Source: Deltaproteobacteria bacterium
Lineage (GTDB): Bacteria; Bdellovibrionota; JACOXK01
DNA length: 64,000 bases
Reading direction: 5' to 3'
Assembly (NCBI GenBank): GCA_016186995.1
Contig: JACPKQ010000007.1
Span: forward strand, 52,226-116,225
The translations under genes were made by a program, and so were the position numbers. Below the pieces are notes generated by a model. That model searched no databases. It was given only the letters and a program-made list of their open reading frames with translations, and was not told where the DNA came from. Each line of letters begins with the position of its first letter. Within the stretch, counting starts at the first letter, position 1. Positions 1-29,407 of the stretch are shown piece after piece.

Positions 1-966
1 TTAATCCGTTGTTTCAATTTTTGTTTAGACGGCTGTAAACGTGTGGTTTCAAAGTGCTGAATACCTTGATATTCAATGGCAAGACCAAGATTCCTATTAT
101 ATAGGTCTAGTTCCATTCGATTACCTCTATCATTTACTAGCCAGCTTGGGCGTGTTTTTGGAAAGGATCTACCATACATTTTTTCTATATATCTTCTTAC
201 AATTGATTCAGATAGATGGTATTTGCATTGGGGACACCAGCTTTTTCTTATAACATCCCATGTTGTTGTCCAAGTATGTCCTATGCTACATTGCCACTTC
301 ATTTTTGTAGAAGAATCCCTGTATTTTTTAGATAGGCAGAAACCGCCTCTAGTTGCTGCTAATTCTTTTGCATTACTTATTGTAATGTGTTTTCCGGCAC
401 AAAATGGGCACCAAGAGCCTCGCTTGATGCTAGAAGGTCTTGCTTTCCATTTATGTCCTTTCTTGCATTTCCATAATAACTTTGCATGCACATTTTCATA
501 TTTTGACGATAAACAAAGACCACCACGCTTATGAGCAAGCTGCTTCATTTCTTCAATATTGGATTTTCGTCGGAATACATTTTTTTGAATAGCGCATTTT
601 GGACACCATGTTCCTTGTTTTACGGCGTTTGGTACAGCTTGCCAAATGTGTCCATTTTGACACTTCCATTTTAGTTTAGTTTGGCTATTTACATATCTCT
701 TAGCTAAACATTTTCCACCGCGTTTTTTTGCAAGCTGCTTCATTTCTTCAATAGAGCCACGTTGTTTAGATGCCCGCTTTTCGATTCCACAGCTTGGGCA
801 CCAAGTACCACTTTTTATACTATTATAGAGAGCGTTCCATTTGTGACCTTTTTCACACTGCCATTTCAATTTGGAGTGATTGTTAATATATTTCTTCGAA
901 AGACACTTTCCTCCCTTTTTCTTAGCGAGTTTCTGCACATCTTTAATTGAAAGCTTCTTACCCATG
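1..966 (-). CDS. Tandem zinc-ribbon repeat protein (DUF4379-like) with a C-terminal DUF559/Vsr-like endonuclease-like domain. Partial: the 3' end runs off the window.
   Basis: Minus-strand translation from ATG at 966-964 gives MGKKLSIKDVQKLAKKKGGKCLSKKYIN...KLKWQCEKGHKWNA...GTWCPSC. There are at least four repeats of the module GGxCLSxxY-x5-KLxWxCxxGHxW-x8-GxWCPxC. The C-terminal part, ELDLYNRNLGLAIEYQGIQH, resembles the DUF559/Vsr core. The start overlaps the upstream gene's stop as ATGGGTAA. This gene is absent from the supplied ORF track because it is edge-truncated. Confidence 0.6.
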
Positions 967-2445
967 ACTTTGTTTTATTTTTGGAAAGACAAGGTTATTT
1001 AAAACTTCAAATATCTTTAGCAATGCAAGTGTATCTAACTTGCAGTATTTTTTAAGATCCTGTTCTATTTTTTTAATTTTAGAAGAAGATAATTTTGTTT
1101 TTTGAACATTAAGATACGCAACGCTTGCTAGTGTGCCTTTATTTATATCAAGATCTTCATATGTAAGTTCAGGGCATAAAACGGGTAGAATGCTTTTTAA
1201 ACTAAGAGAGCCATAAAATTTAGGATCGTAATAAAATTTTTGAAAGACTTCTTCTAAGTCGATCATATTAGTTGCGATGTTGTTTATTTCGTCTTCAAAG
1301 GGAAGAAAGATTTTTGATAAGTTGTTAAGTATCATTTTTTCAAAACTGGCATGGTAAGCGATAACTGAGCCATTATCACCTATAGTATCTAACAAGTTTT
1401 GAATAAAAGCGGGCCTGGGATCTTTTTTATTTAAATCTAGAAAGTCTTTGTGGGTGATATTTCCTTCAGAATCTAAGATATGACAACTAAATTGAAATGG
1501 AAGTTGTTCATAGGGGTGTATGCCTTTAAAAAGTGGAATGGCTGGGTTTGCTGTTTCAAAATCAAGAAAATGAATGGGGTATTGAAGCTGGTTAATAAAG
1601 TTTTCAATTCCTTCTTTGTCGATATAAGGCTTATTTTCTTCAATGGTTTTCTTTTGGGCATACTGAAAGACATTGAGTTTATAATTTTCTGGAAGATCTT
1701 TTATTTTTAAAATACCTGATTTATACAGTTTAAACTTTTCTGTATTTTTTAAATGATAAAGTTCAAAGACTGAGTGCTCTGTTACATGTTGCCAACAGTG
1801 ACTTTTAAAAGGACATTCATAGGGCTCATTACAATAAGGACCAATATCAATATTAGGCGCAGTTTCTAGTTTCAATGTTTCAAATTGTCTTTTTAAATTA
1901 GATTCTATTCCAATTTGTTTTATTAGGACCTTGTCAGTTATGTCTTCTTTAATAAAAAAATTTGAGAGCTCTGGATAAGTACACTCTGTATTTACATGCA
2001 TAAGGAAGGTGTTTTCTATATTGATATTGTTGTTTTTAAGAACGTAATATTGAATAGCGACATCATCTATCAAATGATCTTCTACTTTAGTGGTTGATTT
2101 TACTTCTATAAGATTCCATCCCGTTTCGGTTTTTTCTAAAATATCAGCTTTAACAAGGATATCATTATATTCAAAAGTTGCTTCAAATATAGCTTGAGGT
2201 TCTTTTTCTAGGACTTTTTGCGTGAGTTCTATCTGTTTTTCTAATCCTCTTTCTTGTATGGTACATATATCGATACCGTCTTTAAAAAAGGTTTTAGCTA
2301 GATTGCCAACTTCATGGCCTTGTTGAAAAAGAAATTTTTCAGCCTCATCTAAGTTTTTCTTAAGTTTAGGTTGTTTGGTACCAAGGTAGAGTGCTTTTAA
2401 GCACTTTATTCCGGTTAAGTATCTTGATTTTGAAAGTTTAGCCAT
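958..2445 (-). CDS. DUF2779 family nuclease. The N-terminal half is a Cas4/RecB-like PD-(D/E)xK domain with a Cys cluster; the C-terminal half is a DnaQ-like DEDD exonuclease domain.
   Basis: The N-terminus KSRYLTGIKCLKALYL is typical of DUF2779. PD-(D/E)xK-like motif: DILVKADIL...IEVKS. Cys cluster: CNEPYECPFKSHCW. C-terminal motifs FLDFET and YHASFE match exonuclease motifs I and III. 495 aa. Confidence 0.6.
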   Translation of the reverse strand: MAKLSKSRYLTGIKCLKALYLGTKQPKLKKNLDEAEKFLFQQGHEVGNLAKTFFKDGIDICTIQERGLEKQIELTQKVLEKEPQAIFEATFEYNDILVKADILEKTETGWNLIEVKSTTKVEDHLIDDVAIQYYVLKNNNINIENTFLMHVNTECTYPELSNFFIKEDITDKVLIKQIGIESNLKRQFETLKLETAPNIDIGPYCNEPYECPFKSHCWQHVTEHSVFELYHLKNTEKFKLYKSGILKIKDLPENYKLNVFQYAQKKTIEENKPYIDKEGIENFINQLQYPIHFLDFETANPAIPLFKGIHPYEQLPFQFSCHILDSEGNITHKDFLDLNKKDPRPAFIQNLLDTIGDNGSVIAYHASFEKMILNNLSKIFLPFEDEINNIATNMIDLEEVFQKFYYDPKFYGSLSLKSILPVLCPELTYEDLDINKGTLASVAYLNVQKTKLSSSKIKKIEQDLKKYCKLDTLALLKIFEVLNNLVFPKIKQSHG

Positions 2446-2514: not shown

Positions 2515-3021
2515 TTATAAAGCTTTTTCGGCTAGAGCAACAAGGTCAAGCTTTAGAAGGGATTCATATTTCTTAGGCAAAGCACTCATATTTTTTAGGT
2601 GTATGTTTTTGATATTACCTCGAATTACTTTCTGTAAATCAAAGCCCATGACAGACTTTTTAATTTCAAATAGAAGGTCATTTCCATTAAAAATATAAAA
2701 GTTGAGAGGTATTTTCTTTTCAACAAGTGTGTGAGGAAGGTTAAAGTTTTTTAGCTTTTTCTGAACTGCTTTTTCAAAGGAAGATATTACTTTCATAATA
2801 ATTGCAGTTGTTGAAACTGAAATTTCATATTTTCTAAGTTCCAGGGCCACAATAAACTCAAAAAGATTTTTTTGAGAGAACTTTCGCCATTGGCCCCGAC
2901 CTTGCGTTTGTTCAAATTCTGGAACGATGACGTTTTTTTCACAGAGGTGAATTAAAACATGCTGTGGCATGCCCAGTTTAATTTGAATTTCTTTAAGCGT
3001 TAGCTGTTCCATTATCGACAT
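2515..3021 (-). CDS. MerR-family HTH transcriptional regulator-like protein
   Basis: The N-terminus LTLKEIQIKLGMPQHVLIHLCEKNVIVPEFEQTQGRGQWRKFSQKNLFEF fits the MerR HTH plus its RxYS-like region. The C-terminal half has no recognisable domain. Confidence 0.4.
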   Translation of the reverse strand: MSIMEQLTLKEIQIKLGMPQHVLIHLCEKNVIVPEFEQTQGRGQWRKFSQKNLFEFIVALELRKYEISVSTTAIIMKVISSFEKAVQKKLKNFNLPHTLVEKKIPLNFYIFNGNDLLFEIKKSVMGFDLQKVIRGNIKNIHLKNMSALPKKYESLLKLDLVALAEKAL

Positions 3022-3068: not shown

Positions 3069-3167
3069 ATGGCTCAAGTTAAAGGTATCCTTTTTGATCT
3101 CGACAACACGCTGATTGATTTTATGAAAATGAAGAGAATAACTTGTTTAGAGACTGCCTTTGCATGA
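3069..3167 (+). pseudogene. Fragment (32 codons) duplicating the N-terminus of the HAD hydrolase gene at 5589-6248
   Basis: Fragment: MAQVKGILFDLDNTLIDFMKMKRITCLETAFA*. Intact gene: MKKIKGILFDLDNTLIDFMKMKKMACSEAAAAM. DNA identity is about 75%, with many synonymous changes. The fragment terminates prematurely at TGA. Confidence 0.6.
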
Positions 3168-3446: not shown

Positions 3447-4256
3447 ATGAAGGAAACGTTTTATAAAAAGGAAATTAAAGTTCATGGCAATGTATATCCT
3501 TCCATTCGACAAGCAGCGCTATATTTTCATCTGAAACCACAACTTGTATGGGCTAGATTGAAGAGAGGAAAATCTATAGACGAAGCATTTTCAAAAGTTT
3601 ACCTCAAGCGTATCGGTAAAGGAAAGCCCTTTTCTATAGAAGGGAATCATTTTGATTCAATTGCGGAAGCGGCAAGGTTTTATGATATAAATGAAAGCAC
3701 AGTTCGACACCGGCTAAAATCTGGATGGTCAAGAAAGCAAGCGTTTGGAATTGTAGGCCGGCCTCGAAAAGACCGCATAAAGATCAAGGTAAATAATATA
3801 GAATATTCTTCACTCACTGAAGCAGCACGCGCTCATAATTTAGCTCCTTCAATTGTTTGGCAAAGACGTCGACGAGGGTGTTCTATAGAAGAATTGTTCT
3901 CAAAAGATTGCTTGCCGTTGAAAGGCAAAAGTCGAACAATTGTCGTACAAGACAAAACATATCCTTCAGCAAAAATCGCAGCTGTAAAGTTTGGTGTTCA
4001 TTATAGCAAAGTACGTTGGCGTCTTAAGAATGGTTGGTCGCCAGAGCAAGCTTGTGGCATTGAGGAACGACCAGTTAAGCAGCGGAGACCTGTTTCATTC
4101 AGAGGTAAACAACATGAATCAATGTCTACTTTTGCACGGTATTACGAAAAAGATCCAAGATTAATTGGTGCGCGGTTAAGACGCGGATTGAGTATTGAGG
4201 AAGCGCTTGATATTAAAGAAAGGAATTATCGATCTAAGCCAATTACCTGTTTATAG
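3447..4256 (+). CDS. Protein made of five tandem NUMOD-like HTH DNA-binding repeats (nuclease-associated modular DNA-binding domain), with no nuclease domain
   Basis: Five roughly 45-aa repeats with the pattern (V/I)xGxxYxSxxxAAxxxxxxxxxVxxRLxxGWSxExA, for example IEGNHFDSIAEAARFYDINESTVRHRLKSGWSRKQAFG. ATG start. The 3' end overlaps the next ORF in another frame. Confidence 0.55.
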   Translation: MKETFYKKEIKVHGNVYPSIRQAALYFHLKPQLVWARLKRGKSIDEAFSKVYLKRIGKGKPFSIEGNHFDSIAEAARFYDINESTVRHRLKSGWSRKQAFGIVGRPRKDRIKIKVNNIEYSSLTEAARAHNLAPSIVWQRRRRGCSIEELFSKDCLPLKGKSRTIVVQDKTYPSAKIAAVKFGVHYSKVRWRLKNGWSPEQACGIEERPVKQRRPVSFRGKQHESMSTFARYYEKDPRLIGARLRRGLSIEEALDIKERNYRSKPITCL

Positions 4257-4980
4257 TGTGACCAATACAAAAGCCGGTAAGCAATATGTTGGCGAGTCCT
4301 CATGTACACTTGAAAAGCGTAGGCAATGGCACATGAAGCAAGTTTACGGTGAAAAGAGACCTGCTGAAGGTAGTTTGCAGGAGGCGATTAAAAGAGATGA
4401 ACCTGAGTATTTTAAATGGAAAGTGCTTGCACGCTGTAGGTCGATAGATCAAGCTAACAGACTCGAACGAAAATTTATCAGAGAGTTTAATACTTCATAC
4501 CCACATGGTTACAATCTTCGGCGAGGTGGGACAGGCATTTCAAAAAAAGGTAAAAAAATATTGGTGAATGGGAAGCCTTTTGACTCTTACAGAGCTGCAG
4601 CTGATGCCCATGGTGTAAATATTGGAACATTTCAGGATAGGTTGTACGCGGGGTATTCACCCGAACAGGCTGCTGGTTTGATTCCGCTTGATAAAGTGCA
4701 TCCAAAATCACGTAAAATTAAAATAGATAATATAGAATATCCAACAATAAAAGATGCTGCTAAAGCTGCTGGTCAGCCTGCAAATAGAGTGAGAAATAGA
4801 ATTCACTCTGGCTGGTCTGTAGAAAAGGCGCTTAAAACACCATTTTCGAGAAGAGATACTCCTGTGAAAATTGATGGTACCACTTATTCATCAATGGGGG
4901 TTGCTGCAAGGAAATTAGGTATTAATTATGACACATTGAGATACAGGCTGAAAAAGCAAAGGAAGAACATGTATGTTTAA
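4195..4980 (+). CDS. GIY-YIG family homing-endonuclease-like protein with three C-terminal NUMOD-like repeats. Either it starts on TTG or it is the frameshifted continuation of 3447-4256.
   Basis: PVYSVTNTKAGKQYVGES...LEKRRQWH...FNTSYPHGYNLRRGG matches the GIY-x10-YIG motif, the conserved Arg and the catalytic Glu region. It is followed by VNGKPFDSYRAAADAHGVNIGTFQDRLYAGYSPEQAAG-type repeats. There is no in-frame ATG upstream of the GIY motif. Confidence 0.6.
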   Translation: MRKRLILKKGIIDLSQLPVYSVTNTKAGKQYVGESSCTLEKRRQWHMKQVYGEKRPAEGSLQEAIKRDEPEYFKWKVLARCRSIDQANRLERKFIREFNTSYPHGYNLRRGGTGISKKGKKILVNGKPFDSYRAAADAHGVNIGTFQDRLYAGYSPEQAAGLIPLDKVHPKSRKIKIDNIEYPTIKDAAKAAGQPANRVRNRIHSGWSVEKALKTPFSRRDTPVKIDGTTYSSMGVAARKLGINYDTLRYRLKKQRKNMYV

Positions 4981-5067: not shown

Positions 5068-5592
5068 TTGAGTATTAAGATTGTTCCCTTGATAGAGGCA
5101 ATTCCAAATTCTGGATACGATTCCAATAAACGACGGTCTAGTTTATTAGCACATGCTGGCGTTGCTTATCTCGAGGCATATGAAGCTATGAGCAATCTAC
5201 CTGAAAAGGGATTTGCTGTTCATTTCGTTGAGCTACCTTTATTGCACATGACTTTGGAACTTTTGATAAAAGCGTATGTGTCGTGGATTGATGATAGTTT
5301 TGATCCAAAAAAAAGGGCATACAGACATTGTACAAAAAAAATTATTGAAGATTATGCGGATAAAATAAATGAATTCTCTTTGATAAAGAATAATCCTGAG
5401 AAAATTGCTCTCATTGAACAGCTAGAAAAAGCATGGAGATACTTGAGATATGGGGAAAGCACCCTTACGTGTGAAAGAAAAGATTTACATATGGCAAAAG
5501 ATTTAGCAATCGAACTTGCAGAAGCTTATCATAAAGCCACTGGTCTTCGCTTTTTTAGCCATCATTTTTCGCAAAAAGGAGCAAAAAGGTGA
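5068..5592 (+). CDS. Hypothetical all-helical protein; possibly HEPN-like (tentative)
   Basis: 174-aa ORF with a TTG start. The R-x3-H stretch (RKDLH) and the helical composition only loosely suggest HEPN. It sits between the GIY-YIG gene and the HAD gene. Confidence 0.3.
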   Translation: MSIKIVPLIEAIPNSGYDSNKRRSSLLAHAGVAYLEAYEAMSNLPEKGFAVHFVELPLLHMTLELLIKAYVSWIDDSFDPKKRAYRHCTKKIIEDYADKINEFSLIKNNPEKIALIEQLEKAWRYLRYGESTLTCERKDLHMAKDLAIELAEAYHKATGLRFFSHHFSQKGAKR

Positions 5593-6248
5593 AAAAAATA
5601 AAAGGTATACTCTTTGATTTGGATAATACACTCATAGATTTCATGAAAATGAAGAAAATGGCTTGTTCTGAGGCTGCAGCAGCCATGCTTGGTGCAGGGC
5701 TAAAAATAAAAGCAGAGAACTTGGCAGATGATCTTTTTAAATATTATTTAAATTATGGTATTGAGGGTGATTATCCTTTCACTGACTTTTTAAAAGAGCA
5801 TAATGCCTATAAAGATGAAATTCTGGCAGCAGCAATCAATGCTTATAATCGGGTGAAATCAGCTTTTCTAGAACCCTATCCAGGGGTGATTCCAACGTTC
5901 ATTAAGTTAATTAAAAAAGGAATAAAGCTTGGTATTGTGACAGATGCCCCTTCTTTAAAAGCTCACAGAAGAATTGACTCTATGAAGCTTCACGGATTTT
6001 TCGATGTCGTTGTTACTGAAGCAAATAAACCTGATCCGAAAGGTTTTTTGGAGGCTGTGAAGAAATTGAATCTGGAGCCAAAAGAAGTCATGATGCTCGG
6101 TGATTGGCCTGAGAAAGACATAGTTGGGGCTAAAAACGCAGGACTCATCACTTGTTTTGCAAAGTATGGGCAAATGGAAAATGTTAAAGAGAAAGTTGAA
6201 GCTGACTATGTGATTCAACGAATTGAGGAGGTTAATCAAATTTTATGA
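5589..6248 (+). CDS. HAD-superfamily hydrolase (subfamily IA; phosphatase or pyrophosphatase-like)
   Basis: Motif I DxDxT in ILFDLDNTLIDF. Motif III is K within VTEANKPDPKGF. Motif IV is GD in MLGDWPEKDIVGAKNAG. GTG start. Confidence 0.75.
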   Translation: MKKIKGILFDLDNTLIDFMKMKKMACSEAAAAMLGAGLKIKAENLADDLFKYYLNYGIEGDYPFTDFLKEHNAYKDEILAAAINAYNRVKSAFLEPYPGVIPTFIKLIKKGIKLGIVTDAPSLKAHRRIDSMKLHGFFDVVVTEANKPDPKGFLEAVKKLNLEPKEVMMLGDWPEKDIVGAKNAGLITCFAKYGQMENVKEKVEADYVIQRIEEVNQIL

Positions 6249-6766
6249 GTCAAGGATATAATAATACTGAAGAAAGAAAATTTCAATTTGCTAAAGATTA
6301 TTGGCAGGCAAATACACAATCGCAAAGAAATTATTTGGGATGGTTGATATCGATAAATGGAGGATTATGGGCTGCGCTTTATGCGATATCAAAGTCTTCA
6401 GATTATAGCGTAGAGTTTTGGGGTGGTTTAACAATGCTTGCCCTTATTTTAGTCAATCTTATTATATCGCTTCATTATACCAGACAGCACTATTTAAATG
6501 AGCTACTTTTTGACAAGATTTTATCCAAGTATAAATCAATAGAGGAAAACGAAGACAAATGGAAAGGTTGGGGATGGATTTTGACTCGATTAGTCTTATC
6601 ATTGATGGGAGCCATATCGATCATTTATGGAGTTAATTTTTTTTGTAAAGATTCATTGAATGTCTGTGTTTATGTTCTTGGAGTATTTATTGTAGTAATC
6701 GTTTGGTATTTTGCTCTGACACTACTTGGAAAAGCTAATAAGCCAATGGATCCTGATAAGAAATAA
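6245..6766 (+). CDS. Hypothetical integral membrane protein (about 4 TM segments)
   Basis: Hydrophobic segments such as GWLISINGGLWAALYAI, LTMLALILVNLIISL and VLGVFIVVIVWYFALTLL. No conserved motifs. Confidence 0.4.
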   Translation: MSQGYNNTEERKFQFAKDYWQANTQSQRNYLGWLISINGGLWAALYAISKSSDYSVEFWGGLTMLALILVNLIISLHYTRQHYLNELLFDKILSKYKSIEENEDKWKGWGWILTRLVLSLMGAISIIYGVNFFCKDSLNVCVYVLGVFIVVIVWYFALTLLGKANKPMDPDKK

Positions 6767-6822: not shown

Positions 6823-7530
6823 ATGAGTGATGTAACTTTTAAATACAAAGGTAAGACATATACAGAAGCAAAGAATGCTGAATCAAGCAAAGATTCTGAG
6901 CGATATAAGTGCTTTGATTCCATTATTCAACTGACAGATGACGAAGGCAGTACCCTTTCCGGTCTGTTTCATGACAAAGATTTGGAGGTCATTCAGCTTG
7001 GCCTTGTAGCTGGAGAATTTAAGCCTAAACTTTTATCGACTTTAAAAGTTACTCAAATGGTGACTTTCTTGCTTTATAGGTTCAATGTTTTTGACCTTCA
7101 GATGGGAATTGGGATTCTATATGCTAAAGCTTACAAAAAAGGAAATGCATCTTTTTATATGCCGAATGAATTGTTAAAAATGCTCAATGAACCTAAACTT
7201 TCTATTTTTAAAAAAAGAAAAGATAAATGTGGAACGCATGTTTCTGTGCCTGATAGAATTAATATGCTTAAGGAAAATAAAATCTGCCAAGATGATTCCC
7301 TTCTTAAATCTGTAAGGGCATTTGGTCATTTGAGAAATGTCTTAGTACATCCATTGTTTAAACAGCGAGAACCAATAACGGCTCTAAAAGAATTAGGATA
7401 TGATATCATTTTGATGAATATTTATGAAAAAGACATGCGCTCGATTGAGCAAGTAGGAAAACTTATTTTAGAAAGTTGGTATTGTATAAATCAGATAAAG
7501 CATTATGTTTGTGACTTGGTTAAAAATTAG
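6823..7530 (+). CDS. Hypothetical protein
   Basis: 235-aa ORF with RBS GGAAGCCGAGA upstream. No recognisable motif. Confidence 0.35.
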   Translation: MSDVTFKYKGKTYTEAKNAESSKDSERYKCFDSIIQLTDDEGSTLSGLFHDKDLEVIQLGLVAGEFKPKLLSTLKVTQMVTFLLYRFNVFDLQMGIGILYAKAYKKGNASFYMPNELLKMLNEPKLSIFKKRKDKCGTHVSVPDRINMLKENKICQDDSLLKSVRAFGHLRNVLVHPLFKQREPITALKELGYDIILMNIYEKDMRSIEQVGKLILESWYCINQIKHYVCDLVKN

Positions 7531-7760: not shown

Positions 7761-8228
7761 TTATTTATTTTCTTTTAAAACTTTTTTAAGATCCTTTAAA
7801 GTATCTCCAATATTCATATGGTCGGAAGGTAAAATTCCTTTTGCCTGATAATAAGCTTTTGAAAAAGTGTCTCCCATTGATCTAATAAGAGTTTCCACAA
7901 ATGGCTCACTATGGGGCATGTGTTGAACAAGTATTTTGTTAATGTCAATTTGAATTCCCTGTCCCTCACTAAAAACTTTTACAAGGGAGTCTTTGTTGTT
8001 TCCGTATTTGCACGTTAACCCATGCTTAAACTCTTCTTGAATAAATTTATAATCTTCTTTTTTTGACATTTCATTAAAAAGCCTAGCTCGTTCCAACTGC
8101 TTCCATATTTCAAAACGTAACTCATCACTGAATTTTTTAAGTTCACTTGCTTTTTGAAAAGGGAGCCCAGCTAATTTATCTCTTGTAGCTGAATTGTTTG
8201 CGTGGTTTTTTTTATTATTTTCTTGCAT
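7761..8228 (-). CDS. Hypothetical protein
   Basis: 155-aa ORF, charged, with no signal peptide. Confidence 0.35.
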   Translation of the reverse strand: MQENNKKNHANNSATRDKLAGLPFQKASELKKFSDELRFEIWKQLERARLFNEMSKKEDYKFIQEEFKHGLTCKYGNNKDSLVKVFSEGQGIQIDINKILVQHMPHSEPFVETLIRSMGDTFSKAYYQAKGILPSDHMNIGDTLKDLKKVLKENK

Positions 8229-24259: not shown

Positions 24260-27200
24260 TTAAGCTGCTTTTTTAAGCTGTTCTTCTTTAATGATACGTT
24301 TTCGGGGAATTCTAAAGGTGAATGTAGAACCTTTTCCATAAACACTTTTGACACAGATATTTCCTCCATGCAATGCAACAATCCTCTTGCAAAGAAAAAG
24401 TCCTAATCCAGACCCTTTTTCAGACTTTTCTACAGGCATTTCTGGAGTTTGGAACCTGTCAAAAATATGAGATATTTTTTCTTGCGAAATCCCTTGTCCT
24501 GTATCTGTAACAGAAACCTCAACAAACTCTTCTCCATTTTCTTTGATAGCTCTAGCTTTGAGAGTGATGGTACCACCCAATGAAGTAAATTTTAAAGCAT
24601 TGATTAAGAGATTTTCAATAACTTCTCGAATACGATCTGGATCACACGTCATGTTTTCAACAAGATCCTCTATTTTAAGATTTATGTGAATACCTCGACT
24701 CTGGGCAATTATTTTAGTATCTTCAAAAACATTCCTGATAAGCTCTTTCAGAAAAACATTTTTATATTGGAGAGAAAATTTTTCAGAATCCAGCTGAGAG
24801 ATGTTAAGAAATTGCTCTGTTAGTCTCGTCATTCTTTGTGTTTGTCGTGATATAATATCTAAAAACTTCCCATGATGTCTTGCCGGCATGGTGGAGAAAG
24901 ATTCAATACAATGTTGAATAATCATGAGTGGATTTTTAAGGTTATGGGAACAAAGTCCAAAGAATACATCTTTAAGGTTAGTAAGTGTTTTGAGTTTTTC
25001 GTAAGCCTGTTTAAGCTCTTCCATTTTCTCTTGAATAACTTCATGTGTCTTTGTAAGTTCTTGAGTTCTTAAATTTACCTTTTCTTCCAAAGATCGACGG
25101 AGTTGATCTAATTCATTGAAAGCCAGAGAGTTTTGAATAGCAATAGCTACTTGTGTCGCAAATACATTAAGTATTTCTAAATCATCTTTTGTAAAAAGGT
25201 TTGTAATAATTCTATTATCAATATAAATGATTCCCAATGTTTCTTTTTCAACTTTTAAAGGCACGCACAGAACAGATCTTAGCCCGTATTTGGTAACAGA
25301 TTTACTTGTCTTAAATTGAGGATCTGTTTGTGCATCGATGACAACAATGCCTTTGGCTTCCTTATAGACCTTTTGGAGTATTTTTTGACTTAAAGAGAAT
25401 TCATCCCCTGAGACTTGTGAAGTATCCACATGTCTTGAAATACGAATTTGAAGTTTTCCATCATTATCTTTTAACATGATAAAACCCCTCTCCCCTCCAA
25501 AGAGTTCAATAAGCGATTCCATCACGCTTGAAAGTAAAGTGGGCAGGTGACGAATGGAACTTAAATAATTACTGACTTTGATAATGGTTTCTAATCGACG
25601 ATTCCGCTTAACTTTTTCCAGCTGCATATCTTTTCTCTGAATGAGTTGTTGATACTTTGAGCAGAGAAGATTGAGATGATACTGATCATCACACTCCTCA
25701 AAAATATCTTTGGCAAGGTAAAGATAATGTATGGCGTTAGATTCAGCTTGTGCAAGAAGAAGTTCAGCATAGGAAAAATAGGTTTGTCCTAATAGATTCT
25801 TTGCCCCCAGCTTGTGTAGTGATTCAATGCTTTTTTTATAAACTCGCTTTGCTTGTGCATGTTTTCCAAAGGCTGTACAGATATCCCCATAAACGCGTAA
25901 AGCCCAACCACCATGGTTTGGATACCGCTGAACTTTTAAAATCTGTTTTCCCATTTTCCAGACTTTCTTTTTAAGTTCTTTATCTTTTTTTTCTTTCCAT
26001 TTTTCAAGATAGGCTTCCGCTAAAGTAAGTGGGGCACCTTGAACATAGCCGATGCGTATTTTGAATTTTTTGATCAGTCCTGTTGCCTTTTCTCCATATT
26101 CAATAGCCTTCTCAAAATTATGAAACAGCAAATACACCGCTGCCGCTGTGTCATAAAGTATTATTTGCCCAATGACATCCTTAATCTCATCAATCATTTT
26201 CAGAGTTTGATGGATACACTTAAATGCCTTTTCTTTATTTCCTCTTAAAGCTTCAAGAAGACCTATCCATGGTAAGATTTTTGTCCTAAAGGAAATATCC
26301 TGGACTTCGGTAGCTATATTGAACGCTATTTTGAAATTTTCTAAAGCTTTTCGTAAATCTCCTTTGATCCACCAACACAACGCTTTAAAACCGATTGCAT
26401 TAGAAAGCTCCCACGCATCACCAATTTTCTCACACCCCTCAATGGCTTTCTCTGTACACTCAATGGCTTTATCCGGATATCCATTATGATAATAGAAAAT
26501 ACCCATACAAGAATGAGTTTGGGCAACACCAAAGACATCGGCATTTTTTATATGAATAGCCAGGGCTTTTCTAGCATAATGAAGAGCTCTTTTCTTAAAA
26601 GGGGTTACTGCCAAATACACACTGTAAATTGATGAAGCTTGAGCTACTTCTTTTTCTTGTCCAACATCATCGGCAACATTTAAATAGCGCTGACAAGAAA
26701 GAAAGCCCTTTATGGGAGTGACAAACCAGTAAGTTAAACTAAGGGCCCGATGGATCCTATTTTGTTCTTGAAAGATTTTTGCCTGTTTTGAATGCTTTTT
26801 TCTTCCAAAGAAATAACGAGGGAATCGTCTATGAAAAAAGCGCATCATGAAAGTTTTTAAAAATGCCAAGACAAGCCCCGGGGTAGAAGAAGGCATTCTT
26901 GCGCCAAGAAATTGCAGGGCTTTTTCAGCATTTTCTATAGATTTTTCATAAGCCCCTTTTCGGAAAAAAAGATCTCCGCGTTTTCGATACAATCGGCACT
27001 TATCTAAAACTGACACTTTTTTTAGAAGAAGATCAGAGTAAATCTTTTCTGCGTCGCTATAATTTCCAATAAGAAGATTGATATCTGCTTTTTCTTCTAA
27101 AACTTCATCTTTAAGAACAAACTCATCTGACCGCATGAATGTTAATGCTCGATTGAAAAAAACAAGGGCTTCTTGTGTTGCATAAGAATGCGTAGCAACT

Positions 27201-29407
27201 TTGCCAGCACGGACCGAGTAATGAACAATTTTTTCAGGAATTTTAGCATGAAAAAAATGGTGAGCTAGTTTGTAAATGGCAAGGGGTCGATCTTTGTCTG
27301 CACTTTTTTCGATGGCAGTGCCCACAAGCTTGTGAATATGTTTCTTTTGTTCGTCTGGAACTTCTTGATAAATAGCTTCCTGAATACGGTCGTGAAGAAA
27401 ATTATAAGTTCCCATATGAAATAGCGATTCTTCTATGAGTTGTGCTTTTTTGGCTTCTTCTAAAGAGTGGTGCACCTCCAGCGGATTGGGATAAACATGC
27501 ATGAGGAGGTCTTGTGTCCACTCCTCTCCGATTGCAGAAGCAATTCTGAGAATTTTCTTAGTGACAGGAGTCACTCGTTTTAATCGTTCGATAAAGAAAC
27601 TAAGAATCTCTTCCGGAAACGGAGTCTTAAGAAGTTGTATCTTATTGAGCTGCCATTTATTTTCCTTGAGATAGAGAATTTCTTTCTCAAATAGCGTCCT
27701 GAATATCTGGGTAATATACAAAGGATTTCCTTCACTTCGAGAGTAGATATGTTTTCCAAGCTCCTCTACCCAAGAGGTTTGGGTCATTAAAATCTCATGA
27801 CAAAGCTCAACAATATCATTTTCTTTCAAAGGAGAGAGCTTTATTTCCATTGTTTTTTCAAACTTTTTAAACTCTTGTGAAAATGATTCTAACCATTCTG
27901 GCGCTTCTGAGGGACGGTAAGTGATCATAAGTTGAATCGGGGTGTGATCAACAGAAGATACTGTTTTCCGAAGCATCTGAAGTGTTTCATGGTCTACGCC
28001 GTGAAGATCATCGAGAAACAGAATGAGAGGATGGACAGAAGCTATAGCTTTCCACAAGGAATTAACACAGTTAAAAAGACGTTCTCTCGCTCTTTCTGGA
28101 GAAAGAGGGGAAATGGGAACAGTTGTTTCATTACATATCAGTTTGAGTTCAGGAACAAATTCCAAAACAACTTCCAACAAATCTTCGAGCTCATCTTCTA
28201 TTGCTTTTTTAATCTGATCTCGGGTTTTTTTAGAAAAGTTTGCATAAAGTTGAACATACTCTCGTATTGCTTGCTGTATCGGTGCATAAGGAAAACGTGT
28301 TAATAAAACATGTCCTTTCCCAGAAATAATAATACATTGGGAAAGCGTAGCATAAGAACGAAGTTCATTTAAAATTCGTGTTTTACCAATGCCAGCCTCT
28401 CCAAGGAGAAACGTGACACTTCCTTTGTTTTGCTTGAGTTGATTCACTTGTGAACGTAGCGTATTTATAACATTCTTCCTACCCATAAGGGGTAGCTCAT
28501 GCATTAATTTTCCTGTTCGATCCACTTTTCCAAGAGGAAAGTTTTCCATACTTCTTCCTTCCTTCAACTTCTGAAAAACAATCTTTAAATCATGAATGAG
28601 ACCTTCTCCAGTTTGATAGCGTTCTGAAGGGTCTTTAGAAAGGAGTTTAAAAACTATTTTTTCGAGTATTTCAGGAACTTGCTTATTTTTTTGTTGAGTC
28701 AGTGAGGGTGGTTGTTTGGTTAAATGATCATGGATAAGCACACCTGCATCTTGAGACTGAAAAGGAGGGGCACCGCTGAGAAATTCATACAAAATAACTC
28801 CAAGCGAATAAAGATCTGAACGAACATCACTGATGTGCCGGAAAAGTCCTGTCTGCTCTGGAGGGATATAGGCAAGAGAACCAACGAGTGCCTCTTTTTC
28901 AAAATAATCATCAATGGTGAGAAGTCTGGCCAAGCCAAAGTCTAAAATTTTTATATTTCCCTTTGAATCAAAAATAATGTTTTCAGGTTTAAGATCGCGA
29001 TGAATAATAAGATTCTGATGGAGATAATTAATAATTTCTATGAGATCAATGGTCCATTTGATGGATTCTTCTATACTTATCTTATGTCTACTTAAGATTT
29101 CCCGGAGTGTGAGCCCCTCAATATATTCTGTAACAAAATAAAGGCAATCTTGAACCTCTCCAAGATCTAATATTTTGACGACACCGGGATGAGAGAGTTT
29201 AAGAAGAATGTGCATTTCTTCTTTCAACCGAAAGACATTTTTCTCCCCCTGATGCTTAAGATCAAGATATTTTAAAATGACCTTGTTTTCAGTTTTAAGA
29301 TCTGTGGCCAAGTATACAAAACTCCCCCCCGACTCTTGAAGAAGCTTTTCTAAAGAATATCGATTATCAATAATATGATTTTTCTTTAAAGCCTGCACCT
29401 TCGCCAT
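24260..29407 (-). CDS. Giant multidomain signalling protein (1715 aa): Ser/Thr protein kinase, AAA+/NACHT-like ATPase, TPR repeats, GAF, HisKA and HATPase_c (HstK-like dual kinase)
   Basis: The Ser/Thr kinase subdomains are VILKYL, HRDLKPENIIF, DFGLAR and PPE. The P-loop is FLLGEAGIGKTR and Walker B is LILFLDDLH. A TPR-like helical array occupies roughly residues 700-1150. GAF is FGGERGFIMLKD. The H box is CSHNLKNPL. The ATP lid is TDTGQGIS...GSGLGLFLC. Confidence 0.85.
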   Translation of the reverse strand: MAKVQALKKNHIIDNRYSLEKLLQESGGSFVYLATDLKTENKVILKYLDLKHQGEKNVFRLKEEMHILLKLSHPGVVKILDLGEVQDCLYFVTEYIEGLTLREILSRHKISIEESIKWTIDLIEIINYLHQNLIIHRDLKPENIIFDSKGNIKILDFGLARLLTIDDYFEKEALVGSLAYIPPEQTGLFRHISDVRSDLYSLGVILYEFLSGAPPFQSQDAGVLIHDHLTKQPPSLTQQKNKQVPEILEKIVFKLLSKDPSERYQTGEGLIHDLKIVFQKLKEGRSMENFPLGKVDRTGKLMHELPLMGRKNVINTLRSQVNQLKQNKGSVTFLLGEAGIGKTRILNELRSYATLSQCIIISGKGHVLLTRFPYAPIQQAIREYVQLYANFSKKTRDQIKKAIEDELEDLLEVVLEFVPELKLICNETTVPISPLSPERARERLFNCVNSLWKAIASVHPLILFLDDLHGVDHETLQMLRKTVSSVDHTPIQLMITYRPSEAPEWLESFSQEFKKFEKTMEIKLSPLKENDIVELCHEILMTQTSWVEELGKHIYSRSEGNPLYITQIFRTLFEKEILYLKENKWQLNKIQLLKTPFPEEILSFFIERLKRVTPVTKKILRIASAIGEEWTQDLLMHVYPNPLEVHHSLEEAKKAQLIEESLFHMGTYNFLHDRIQEAIYQEVPDEQKKHIHKLVGTAIEKSADKDRPLAIYKLAHHFFHAKIPEKIVHYSVRAGKVATHSYATQEALVFFNRALTFMRSDEFVLKDEVLEEKADINLLIGNYSDAEKIYSDLLLKKVSVLDKCRLYRKRGDLFFRKGAYEKSIENAEKALQFLGARMPSSTPGLVLAFLKTFMMRFFHRRFPRYFFGRKKHSKQAKIFQEQNRIHRALSLTYWFVTPIKGFLSCQRYLNVADDVGQEKEVAQASSIYSVYLAVTPFKKRALHYARKALAIHIKNADVFGVAQTHSCMGIFYYHNGYPDKAIECTEKAIEGCEKIGDAWELSNAIGFKALCWWIKGDLRKALENFKIAFNIATEVQDISFRTKILPWIGLLEALRGNKEKAFKCIHQTLKMIDEIKDVIGQIILYDTAAAVYLLFHNFEKAIEYGEKATGLIKKFKIRIGYVQGAPLTLAEAYLEKWKEKKDKELKKKVWKMGKQILKVQRYPNHGGWALRVYGDICTAFGKHAQAKRVYKKSIESLHKLGAKNLLGQTYFSYAELLLAQAESNAIHYLYLAKDIFEECDDQYHLNLLCSKYQQLIQRKDMQLEKVKRNRRLETIIKVSNYLSSIRHLPTLLSSVMESLIELFGGERGFIMLKDNDGKLQIRISRHVDTSQVSGDEFSLSQKILQKVYKEAKGIVVIDAQTDPQFKTSKSVTKYGLRSVLCVPLKVEKETLGIIYIDNRIITNLFTKDDLEILNVFATQVAIAIQNSLAFNELDQLRRSLEEKVNLRTQELTKTHEVIQEKMEELKQAYEKLKTLTNLKDVFFGLCSHNLKNPLMIIQHCIESFSTMPARHHGKFLDIISRQTQRMTRLTEQFLNISQLDSEKFSLQYKNVFLKELIRNVFEDTKIIAQSRGIHINLKIEDLVENMTCDPDRIREVIENLLINALKFTSLGGTITLKARAIKENGEEFVEVSVTDTGQGISQEKISHIFDRFQTPEMPVEKSEKGSGLGLFLCKRIVALHGGNICVKSVYGKGSTFTFRIPRKRIIKEEQLKKAA

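What the first reader, a model, noticed from the sequence alone, without database searches (positions are those of the whole stretch)
1..2445. Translationally coupled DUF2779 nuclease and zinc-ribbon-repeat/DUF559 protein: candidate two-gene nuclease module (defence or homing)
The first gene fuses a Cas4-like PD-(D/E)xK domain with a Cys cluster to a DnaQ-like 3'-5' exonuclease. The second protein carries at least four tandem CxxC...WCPxC zinc ribbons and ends in a Vsr/DUF559-like endonuclease fold. The two ORFs overlap as ATGGGTAA, which implies co-translation. A MerR-like regulator, a GIY-YIG endonuclease and NUMOD-repeat proteins sit immediately alongside. The architecture resembles anti-phage defence islands or selfish nuclease islands, but I do not recognise this pair as a described system. 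The downstream gene is cut by the window edge.
Basis: partly seen in the sequence, partly recalled or inferred. Interest (0 to 1): 0.65.

Follow-up and report, generated by a model that had tools for sequence, protein, structure and literature searches.

The report
Unlinked nuclease gene and homing-endonuclease neighbour
The two overlapping genes are real nucleases from families already described, but they are never neighbours in any other genome examined, so this looks like a selfish homing-endonuclease-type gene next to an unrelated stand-alone nuclease gene, not a new two-gene system.

Summary
The sequence observations mostly hold. Gene 1 (958-2445, minus strand) is a DUF2779 protein: a Cas4-like PD-(D/E)xK domain with four conserved Cys, fused to a DEDD 3'-5' exonuclease. 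Gene 2 (1-965, minus strand, cut by the window edge) has four ~60-aa CapR/DUF4379 zinc-finger repeats, then the start of a Vsr/EDxHD-type nuclease domain. The ATGGGTAA overlap is real.

The "two-gene module" reading is not supported:
- None of 80 genome loci carrying a DUF2779 homologue has a gene-2 relative within 6 kb.
- None of 89 loci carrying a gene-2 relative has a DUF2779 gene within 5 kb.
- The closest DUF2779 relatives (48% identity) are followed by an SNase gene (or its remnant) and a HAD hydrolase gene.
- DUF2779 has no conserved neighbour at all.

Both architectures are already published. DUF2779 was described in NAR 2014 and mSphere 2026. CapR-like repeats plus an EDxHD/Vsr-like nuclease were called a large unrecognised homing-endonuclease outgroup in NAR 2025. 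The gene-2 nuclease domain has 31,323 cluster representatives and is common in phages and giant viruses.

Best reading: a free-standing homing-endonuclease-type gene sitting directly downstream of, and probably co-transcribed with, a stand-alone DUF2779 nuclease. A GIY-YIG/NUMOD cassette nearby appears to have been inserted into the HAD gene. Both genes are new members of known kinds, and interest is low.

The parts
958..2445 (-). Gene 1: DUF2779 protein, 495 aa. Cas4-like PD-(D/E)xK nuclease with a 4-Cys cluster (about residues 1-230; window 1756-2445) fused to a DEDDy 3'-5' exonuclease (about residues 285-490; window 976-1593).
1..965 (-). Gene 2, with its 3' end beyond the window. A CapR/DUF4379 zinc-finger-repeat protein carrying an EDxHD/Vsr-like nuclease domain. 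Read as a free-standing homing-endonuclease-type gene.
   Evidence: Translation. Pfam DUF4379 E 2.6e-18 and CapR E 7.2e-12. 1320 homologues. Architecture matches the HEG outgroup described in PMC12350094.
216..965 (-). Four tandem ~60-aa zinc-finger repeats at residues 1-70, 71-135, 136-193 and 194-250. Putative sequence-reading DNA-binding modules.
   Evidence: Repeat alignment with invariant C, C, H, C, C. Coordinates. CapR-type domains are DNA-binding modules of phage HEGs (PMC10448857).
3..233 (-). N-terminal ~77 residues of the Vsr/EDxHD-like nuclease domain. Contains E261, D287 and H304 (the E, first D and H of EDxHD). The final D lies beyond the window edge.
958..965 (-). 8-nt overlap ATGGGTAA: start codon of gene 2 and the last two codons plus stop of gene 1.
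   Evidence: Read directly from the sequence. The last five residues of gene 1 are modelled as disordered (pLDDT < 50).

Best explanation
These are two unrelated genes that happen to abut.

Gene 1 is a stand-alone chromosomal DUF2779 enzyme, found across bacteria and archaea. It combines a Cas4/RecB-type metal-dependent nuclease holding an Fe-S cluster with a DEDDy 3'-5' exonuclease. Its most likely role (inferred) is trimming both strands at DNA ends or flaps in repair or recombination.

Gene 2 is a free-standing homing-endonuclease-type selfish gene. Its tandem CapR/DUF4379 zinc fingers would read a long DNA site. Its Vsr/EDxHD-type PD-(D/E)xK domain would cut that site, with Mg2+ held by the conserved Asp and His acting as general base. 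Repair from a gene-2-carrying copy would then spread the gene.

Gene 2 sits immediately 3' of gene 1, overlapping its stop codon. It is therefore probably transcribed, and perhaps translationally re-initiated, from gene 1's message, as free-standing HEGs often are.

Shown: the folds, the conserved residues, the overlap, the non-recurrence of the pair, and the family's abundance in phages and giant viruses.
Inferred: catalytic activity, mobility of this particular copy, and co-expression.
For: - Folds and catalytic residues of gene 1.
- Folds and catalytic residues of gene 2.
- The conserved E17-D43-H60 spacing (26 and 17 residues) equals E170-D196-H213 of the characterised homing endonuclease I-Bth0305I (PMC3239194).
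- The same architecture, CapR-like repeats plus an EDxHD/Vsr-like nuclease, is encoded inside phage group I and II introns. It was called a large unrecognised HEG outgroup (PMC12350094).
- CapR-type repeats are the modular DNA-binding domains of phage HEGs (PMC10448857).
- Abundance of the gene-2 nuclease domain: 31,323 cluster representatives, 268 IMG/VR loci with some viruses carrying two copies, 474 phage records with 877 places, and many giant-virus proteins.
- Bacillus phage Eldridge gp065 is annotated as a homing endonuclease and is free-standing between structural genes.
- The position of the nuclease among the repeats varies, and some members have repeats only.
- Neighbours of gene-2 homologues vary.
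- The pair never recurs.
- DUF2779 has no conserved neighbour.
- The rest of the window is ordinary bacterial chromosome.
- A second HEG-type cassette (GIY-YIG/NUMOD) lies 1 kb away, next to an orphan HAD 5' fragment. This is consistent with local HEG activity.
Against: - No empty-site or occupied-site allele pair was found for this locus. The only identical contig (L001) also breaks inside gene 2, and no close relatives exist in JGI metagenomes.
- No target site is known.
- The window copy deviates at two near-invariant positions: ELDG is ELDL and AFEY is AIEY. It is also truncated, so activity cannot be judged.
- No Pfam Vsr or DUF559 hit. There are only weak DUF2726 hits, in 6 of 29 members.
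- Composition does not mark gene 2 as foreign.
- An 8-nt overlap is also what a true operon pair would show.
Confidence: 0.75

Rival explanations
1. A lineage-specific functional two-gene nuclease module (defence or repair). The zinc-finger/Vsr-like protein would recognise and nick or cut DNA, and the co-translated DUF2779 dual exonuclease would then degrade or process the ends.
For: - The 8-nt overlap, with no promoter-like or terminator-like site between the genes on the coding strand.
- Both are nucleases with complementary activities.
- A few DUF2779 loci lie beside restriction or defence genes: GmrSD twice, a type I methyltransferase, MjaI and RhuM.
Against: - The pair is absent from 80 DUF2779 loci and from 89 gene-2-family loci.
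- The nearest DUF2779 relatives carry other genes downstream.
- No significant PADLOC hit.
- Most DUF2779 neighbours are housekeeping or unrelated genes.
- DUF2779 is quasi-essential in a minimal Mycoplasma that has no such partner (PMC13621843).
Confidence: 0.07
2. Gene 2 is a domesticated, non-mobile derivative of the HEG family. It would act as a host DNA-binding regulator (as CapR is) or a Vsr-like repair nickase, and is only incidentally adjacent to DUF2779.
For: - CapR itself is a HEG-derived repressor (PMC10448857).
- Many family members have repeats only, with no nuclease.
- The window copy has substitutions at two near-invariant positions.
- The gene lies in an ordinary chromosome, not a phage.
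Against: - The catalytic E, D and H are retained in the visible part.
- There is no conserved synteny for family members.
- The family's patchy, multi-copy, virus-rich distribution is typical of selfish elements.
Confidence: 0.15
3. Gene 2 is a decaying pseudogene or an assembly-fragmented remnant with no function.
For: - Both the window and the only identical public contig end inside the gene.
- No full-length identical protein was returned; the best hit is 49% identical.
Against: - 321 codons are open, with all four repeats and their zinc ligands intact.
- Contig breaks inside repeat-rich genes are common assembly artefacts.
Confidence: 0.03

Closest known systems
PF11074/DUF2779 family: Cas4-like + DEDD exonuclease fusions (e.g. 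MMSYN1_0389 of JCVI-syn3.0; family F.17 of the RNase H-like superfamily classification)
   Same: Same two-domain architecture, the same conserved D...E-x-K and DEDD(y) residues, and a full-length Pfam match.
   Different: The window protein keeps all four Cas4-type cysteines, whereas the Mycoplasma protein keeps only two (PMC13621843). It is about 495 aa, with none of the long inserts found in the UU173-type proteins (NCBIfam UU173_fam matched at only 49 bits against a cut-off of 225). No member has a tested function.
CapR-like-repeat + EDxHD/Vsr-like homing endonucleases of phage group I/II introns (NAR 2025, PMC12350094)
   Same: Three to five ~60-aa CapR/DUF4379/DUF723-like zinc-finger domains combined with a ~100-140-aa Vsr/EDxHD-like nuclease. 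The paper reports thousands of unannotated relatives.
   Different: The window gene is free-standing in a bacterial chromosome, not inside an intron. In its closest homologues the nuclease sits in the middle of the repeat array, not at the C-terminus.
I-Bth0305I and the EDxHD homing endonuclease family; E. coli Vsr
   Different: About 11-17% sequence identity, with no HMM-level hit to PDB or to the Pfam Vsr/DUF559 models. The DNA-binding part is zinc-finger repeats, not NUMOD/HTH. The domain has a conserved D-x-x-K after the His and lacks Vsr's zinc site.
T5orf172 (GIY-YIG-like) HEGs with repeated CapR/DUF723/DUF4379 domains (ICP1 and T5-like phages; PMC10448857)
   Same: The same repeated zinc-finger DNA-binding modules, a free-standing gene organisation, and repeat-number variation.
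   Different: The catalytic domain is different: T5orf172 there, and a Vsr/EDxHD-type PD-(D/E)xK fold here.

Membership tests
DUF2779 (PF11074) Cas4-like/DEDD nuclease family | Significant full-length match to the PF11074 profile | tested here: met
   E 4.3e-43, 147 bits against a cut-off of 23.3, profile positions 1-126 of 126.
DUF2779 (PF11074) Cas4-like/DEDD nuclease family | N-terminal Cas4/RecB-type PD-(D/E)xK fold with D...ExK and a Cys cluster | tested here: met
DUF2779 (PF11074) Cas4-like/DEDD nuclease family | C-terminal DEDD 3'-5' exonuclease fold with acidic residues and Y/H-x3-4-D | tested here: met
DUF2779 (PF11074) Cas4-like/DEDD nuclease family | Nuclease activity | not testable with these tools
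   In the seven held papers that mention DUF2779, the passages read give no tested function.
EDxHD/Vsr-like homing endonucleases | Vsr-type variant of the PD-(D/E)xK fold | tested here: met
EDxHD/Vsr-like homing endonucleases | Conserved E, D, H, D catalytic residues | tested here: inconclusive
   Family-wide E17, D43, H60 and D81 are conserved. In the window E261, D287 and H304 are present, and the last D lies beyond position 1. The correspondence to I-Bth0305I rests on spacing and fold, not on a residue-level superposition.
EDxHD/Vsr-like homing endonucleases | Sequence-profile match to Vsr, DUF559 or EDxHD models | tested here: not met
   No Pfam Vsr or DUF559 hit. Only weak DUF2726 hits in 6 of 29 members (best E 2.7e-4). 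No PDB sequence hit. The 2025 paper likewise calls these a distant outgroup.
EDxHD/Vsr-like homing endonucleases | Site-specific cleavage and homing (presence/absence alleles, or intron/intein/free-standing mobility) | not testable with these tools
   No close relatives of this locus were available. The variable contexts of homologues are only indirect support.
CapR/DUF4379 zinc-finger repeat DNA-binding modules | Profile match and conserved zinc ligands in each repeat | tested here: met
   DUF4379 E 2.6e-18 (three stretches) and CapR E 7.2e-12 (two stretches). C, C, H, C, C are invariant in all four repeats.
Known anti-phage defence systems (PADLOC-DB 2.0) | Significant match of either protein to a defence-system model, and a recurring gene pair | tested here: not met
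   Best PADLOC E-values are 0.0098 and 0.0046. The pair recurs in 0 of 80 and 0 of 89 loci.

The most novel reading that the evidence does not exclude
The adjacency could be functional in this lineage. A free-standing CapR-EDxHD endonuclease may have become translationally coupled to a Cas4-like/DEDD end-processing nuclease. The break it makes would then be resected at once, which could boost its own homing or provide a makeshift cut-and-degrade defence. A weaker version: the DUF2779 3' flank and the neighbouring HAD gene form a landing pad that repeatedly captures mobile nuclease genes.
Probability: 0.06. Interest if true: 0.5.

Novelty: new member of a known kind. Interest (0 to 1): 0.2.

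Why it matters
It matters little beyond annotation. Gene 1 can be named a DUF2779 Cas4-like/DEDD dual nuclease. Gene 2 can be named a CapR-repeat EDxHD/Vsr-like homing-endonuclease-type protein, not a 'hypothetical zinc-ribbon protein'.

The case also shows that an overlapping pair of nuclease genes beside other HEGs is not evidence for a defence system unless the pair recurs.

The gene-2 family is very large (more than 30,000 cluster representatives) and, as far as the literature found here shows, has not been tested experimentally. Its modular zinc-finger arrays could be of interest for programmable DNA recognition, but that is a property of the family, not of this locus.

Full report
WHAT IS IN THE SEQUENCE

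On the minus strand, an ORF of 495 codons runs from 2445 to 958. A second ORF starts at the ATG at 965-963 and runs off the window at position 1, giving 321 codons with no stop. The gene-2 start is credible because its N-terminus (MGKKLSIKDVQKLAKKKGGKCLS) matches the N-termini of full-length homologues such as P0117 (MGKKLTIEEMQKLARTRGGKCLS). The rest of the 64-kb window encodes ordinary chromosomal functions: malic enzyme, FeoB, KefC-type antiporter, sensor kinases and a tRNA-His. The identical DUF2779 protein is on record from a 'Deltaproteobacteria bacterium' MAG (P0121). So this is a bacterial chromosome, not a phage.

GENE 1

Pfam gives DUF2779 at E 4.3e-43 and RNase_H_2 at E 4.7e-5. An alignment with 24 homologues of 36-49% identity has these invariant residues:
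- D101, E114, K116 and Q132, the RecB/Cas4-type PD-(D/E)xK signature.
- Cys15, Cys205, Cys211 and Cys217, the Cas4-type cluster.
- D295, E297, E369, Y467 and D471, a DEDDy exonuclease signature.

It is also already published. The 2014 RNase H-like superfamily classification lists DUF2779 as an exonuclease-clade family that co-occurs with the PD-(D/E)xK-like DUF83 domain (PMC3985635). A 2026 paper describes MMSYN1_0389 of JCVI-syn3.0 as a DUF2779 Cas4-like + DEDD fusion with both domains predicted active (PMC13621843).

GENE 2

The visible 321 residues consist of four ~60-aa repeats followed by ~77 residues of another domain.

Each repeat has invariant C, C-x3-H and WCPxC. Pfam matches DUF4379 (E 2.6e-18) and the CapR homology domain (E 7.2e-12).

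The following domain, in 28 full-length homologues, is ~140 aa. It has conserved E9, E17, D43 (ELDG), E54/G57/Q59/H60 (FEYQGxQH), and D81-x-x-K84. HMM searches of this domain against PDB sequences and Pfam gave nothing convincing, only weak DUF2726 hits in 6 of 29 members.

The I-Bth0305I paper defines the EDxHD motif as E170, D196, (N208), H213 and D222 (PMC3239194). In this family the E17-to-D43 spacing (26) and the D43-to-H60 spacing (17) are identical to those. In window coordinates, E261, D287 and H304 are present, and the last Asp lies beyond position 1.

'Ends in' is not. Homologues with four N-terminal repeats carry two or three more repeats after the nuclease. More generally, the position of the nuclease within the array varies, and some members are repeats only.

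IS THE PAIR A MODULE?

Of these, 598 encode a relative, across many bacterial and archaeal phyla. I kept the best 80 with 6-kb flanks. tblastn with gene 2 found no relative in any of them.
- Conversely, 9 metagenomic and 80 viral loci carrying gene-2-family members contain no DUF2779 gene within 5 kb.
- The closest DUF2779 relatives (48% identity) are followed by a HAD hydrolase gene (L082), or by an SNase gene and then HAD (L083).
- DUF2779 has no conserved neighbour of any kind. All-against-all clustering of 143 flanking ORFs gave a largest cluster of four.
- The downstream genes range from Hsp70, AccA and MgtE to an occasional GmrSD, type I methyltransferase or MjaI.
- The ten most tightly coupled downstream genes are unrelated to each other and mostly unannotated.
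- PADLOC gives no significant hit for either protein.

The pair therefore does not recur, and the module hypothesis is not supported.

WHAT GENE 2 MOST LIKELY IS

[quoted passage not shown] A 2023 study showed that repeated CapR/DUF723/DUF4379-type zinc fingers are the modular DNA-binding parts of free-standing phage HEGs. It also showed that CapR itself is a domesticated derivative (PMC10448857).

My searches agree with this picture:
- The nuclease-domain profile finds 31,323 50%-identity cluster representatives at E <= 1e-3, and 9,535 at E <= 1e-10.
- It finds 268 IMG/VR loci, including jumbo-phage and giant-virus contigs, some with two copies.
- The protein matches 474 GenBank phage records at 877 places.
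- One match is Bacillus phage Eldridge gp065, annotated as a homing endonuclease and standing free between structural genes.
- Foldseek against viral models returns many giant-virus 'zinc-ribbon domain-containing' or 'restriction endonuclease' proteins, plus phage 'homing endonuclease' and 'VSR endonuclease' entries.
- Neighbours of close homologues differ from contig to contig.

The best-supported reading is that gene 2 is a free-standing homing-endonuclease-type gene. The zinc-finger array would read a long site, and the Vsr-type domain would cleave it using the Asp-bound metal and the His general base. The gene sits right behind DUF2779, where it is probably co-transcribed. No promoter-like or terminator-like site separates them on the coding strand, although that scan is weak evidence.

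Activity, target and mobility of this particular copy are inferred, not shown. The window copy also departs from the consensus at two near-invariant positions, ELDG to ELDL and AFEY to AIEY.

SURROUNDINGS

The GIY-YIG ORF (4195-4980) has three matches: NCBIfam group I intron endonuclease (56.0 bits against a cut-off of 56.05), the PADLOC 'HEase' model (E 1.9e-10), and Pfam GIY-YIG (E 4.5e-4). It also has C-terminal NUMOD/I-TevI DNA-binding matches. The ORF at 3447-4256 has only NUMOD-type repeats. The 'MerR-like' ORF (2515-3021) has no Pfam match even at E <= 10, and no homologue in any fetched locus.

Positions 3069-3164 (plus strand) encode an orphan 32-codon copy of the HAD hydrolase N-terminus, ending in a stop. 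It is about 80% identical in DNA to the start of the intact HAD gene at 5589-6248, and most of the differences are at third codon positions. Between the fragment and the intact gene lie the NUMOD ORF, the GIY-YIG ORF and a 174-aa ORF that overlaps the HAD start. This looks like a ~2.4-kb HEG cassette that entered the HAD gene near codon 30 and brought a replacement 5' end. The window HAD is 76-82% identical to the HAD genes next to DUF2779 in L082 and L083. The DUF2779 proteins are only 48% identical, and in the window DUF2779 lies on the opposite strand, so the locus has also been rearranged.

The region is thus a small patch of selfish-nuclease activity in an ordinary chromosome.

VERDICT

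Both genes are new members of families whose architectures are already described. The pair is a chance adjacency, most plausibly created by insertion of a homing-endonuclease-type gene. Interest is low (0.2).

The most novel reading still open is a lineage-specific functional coupling of the endonuclease with the end-processing nuclease. I give it about 6%.

Noticed in passing
window 3069-3164 (+), compared with 5589-5684 (+): An orphan 32-codon copy of the HAD hydrolase 5' end (MAQVKGILFDLDNTLIDFMKMKR...stop). It is about 80% identical in DNA to the start of the intact HAD gene 2.4 kb downstream, with mostly synonymous differences. Its ATG start resembles the HAD starts of relatives L082/L083 more than the intact gene's GTG start does. 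This suggests a cassette insertion near codon 30 that supplied a replacement 5' end.
   Followed up: partly
window 3447-4256 (+) and 4195-4980 (+): A NUMOD-repeat-only ORF (no nuclease domain) overlaps, by 62 nt and in another frame, a canonical GIY-YIG + NUMOD/I-TevI-type homing endonuclease ORF. The first may be a decayed HEG or a DNA-binding derivative. A frameshifted single gene was not excluded.
   Followed up: no
window 5068-5592 (+), 6245-6766 (+), 6823-7530 (+), 7761-8228 (-), 2515-3021 (-): A run of ORFs with no Pfam, NCBIfam or significant PADLOC match surrounds the HAD gene. Two of them overlap the HAD start or stop by 4 nt. The 168-aa ORF upstream of DUF2779 is separated from the orphan HAD fragment by only ~47 nt, which looks like a rearrangement junction.
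   Followed up: no
L083 1547-2083 and L082 2383-2535: In the closest DUF2779 relatives, an SNase-family gene with a signal-peptide-like N-terminus overlaps the DUF2779 stop (L083). L082 carries an internally deleted remnant of the same gene in its 153-nt spacer, with matching N- and C-terminal codons. The two DUF2779 proteins are 79% identical.
   Followed up: partly
window 5589-6248 versus L082/L083: The HAD hydrolase is 76-82% identical between the window and L082/L083, whereas the adjacent DUF2779 is only 48% identical and lies on the opposite strand in the window. The rates are discordant, or DUF2779 was replaced or rearranged at a conserved HAD locus.
   Followed up: no
window 24260-29407 (-): A 1715-aa protein combining Ser/Thr protein kinase, AAA_16 (STAND-type) ATPase, TPR, GAF, HisKA and HATPase_c domains. 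It is a very large kinase/STAND/histidine-kinase fusion.
   Followed up: no
gene-2 family homologues (P0001-P0120): The position of the Vsr-like nuclease inside the zinc-finger array varies from after repeat 1 to after repeat 6, and about 40% of the top 120 hits have repeats only. The total is usually ~6-8 modules, which suggests frequent domain shuffling or loss of the nuclease.
   Followed up: partly
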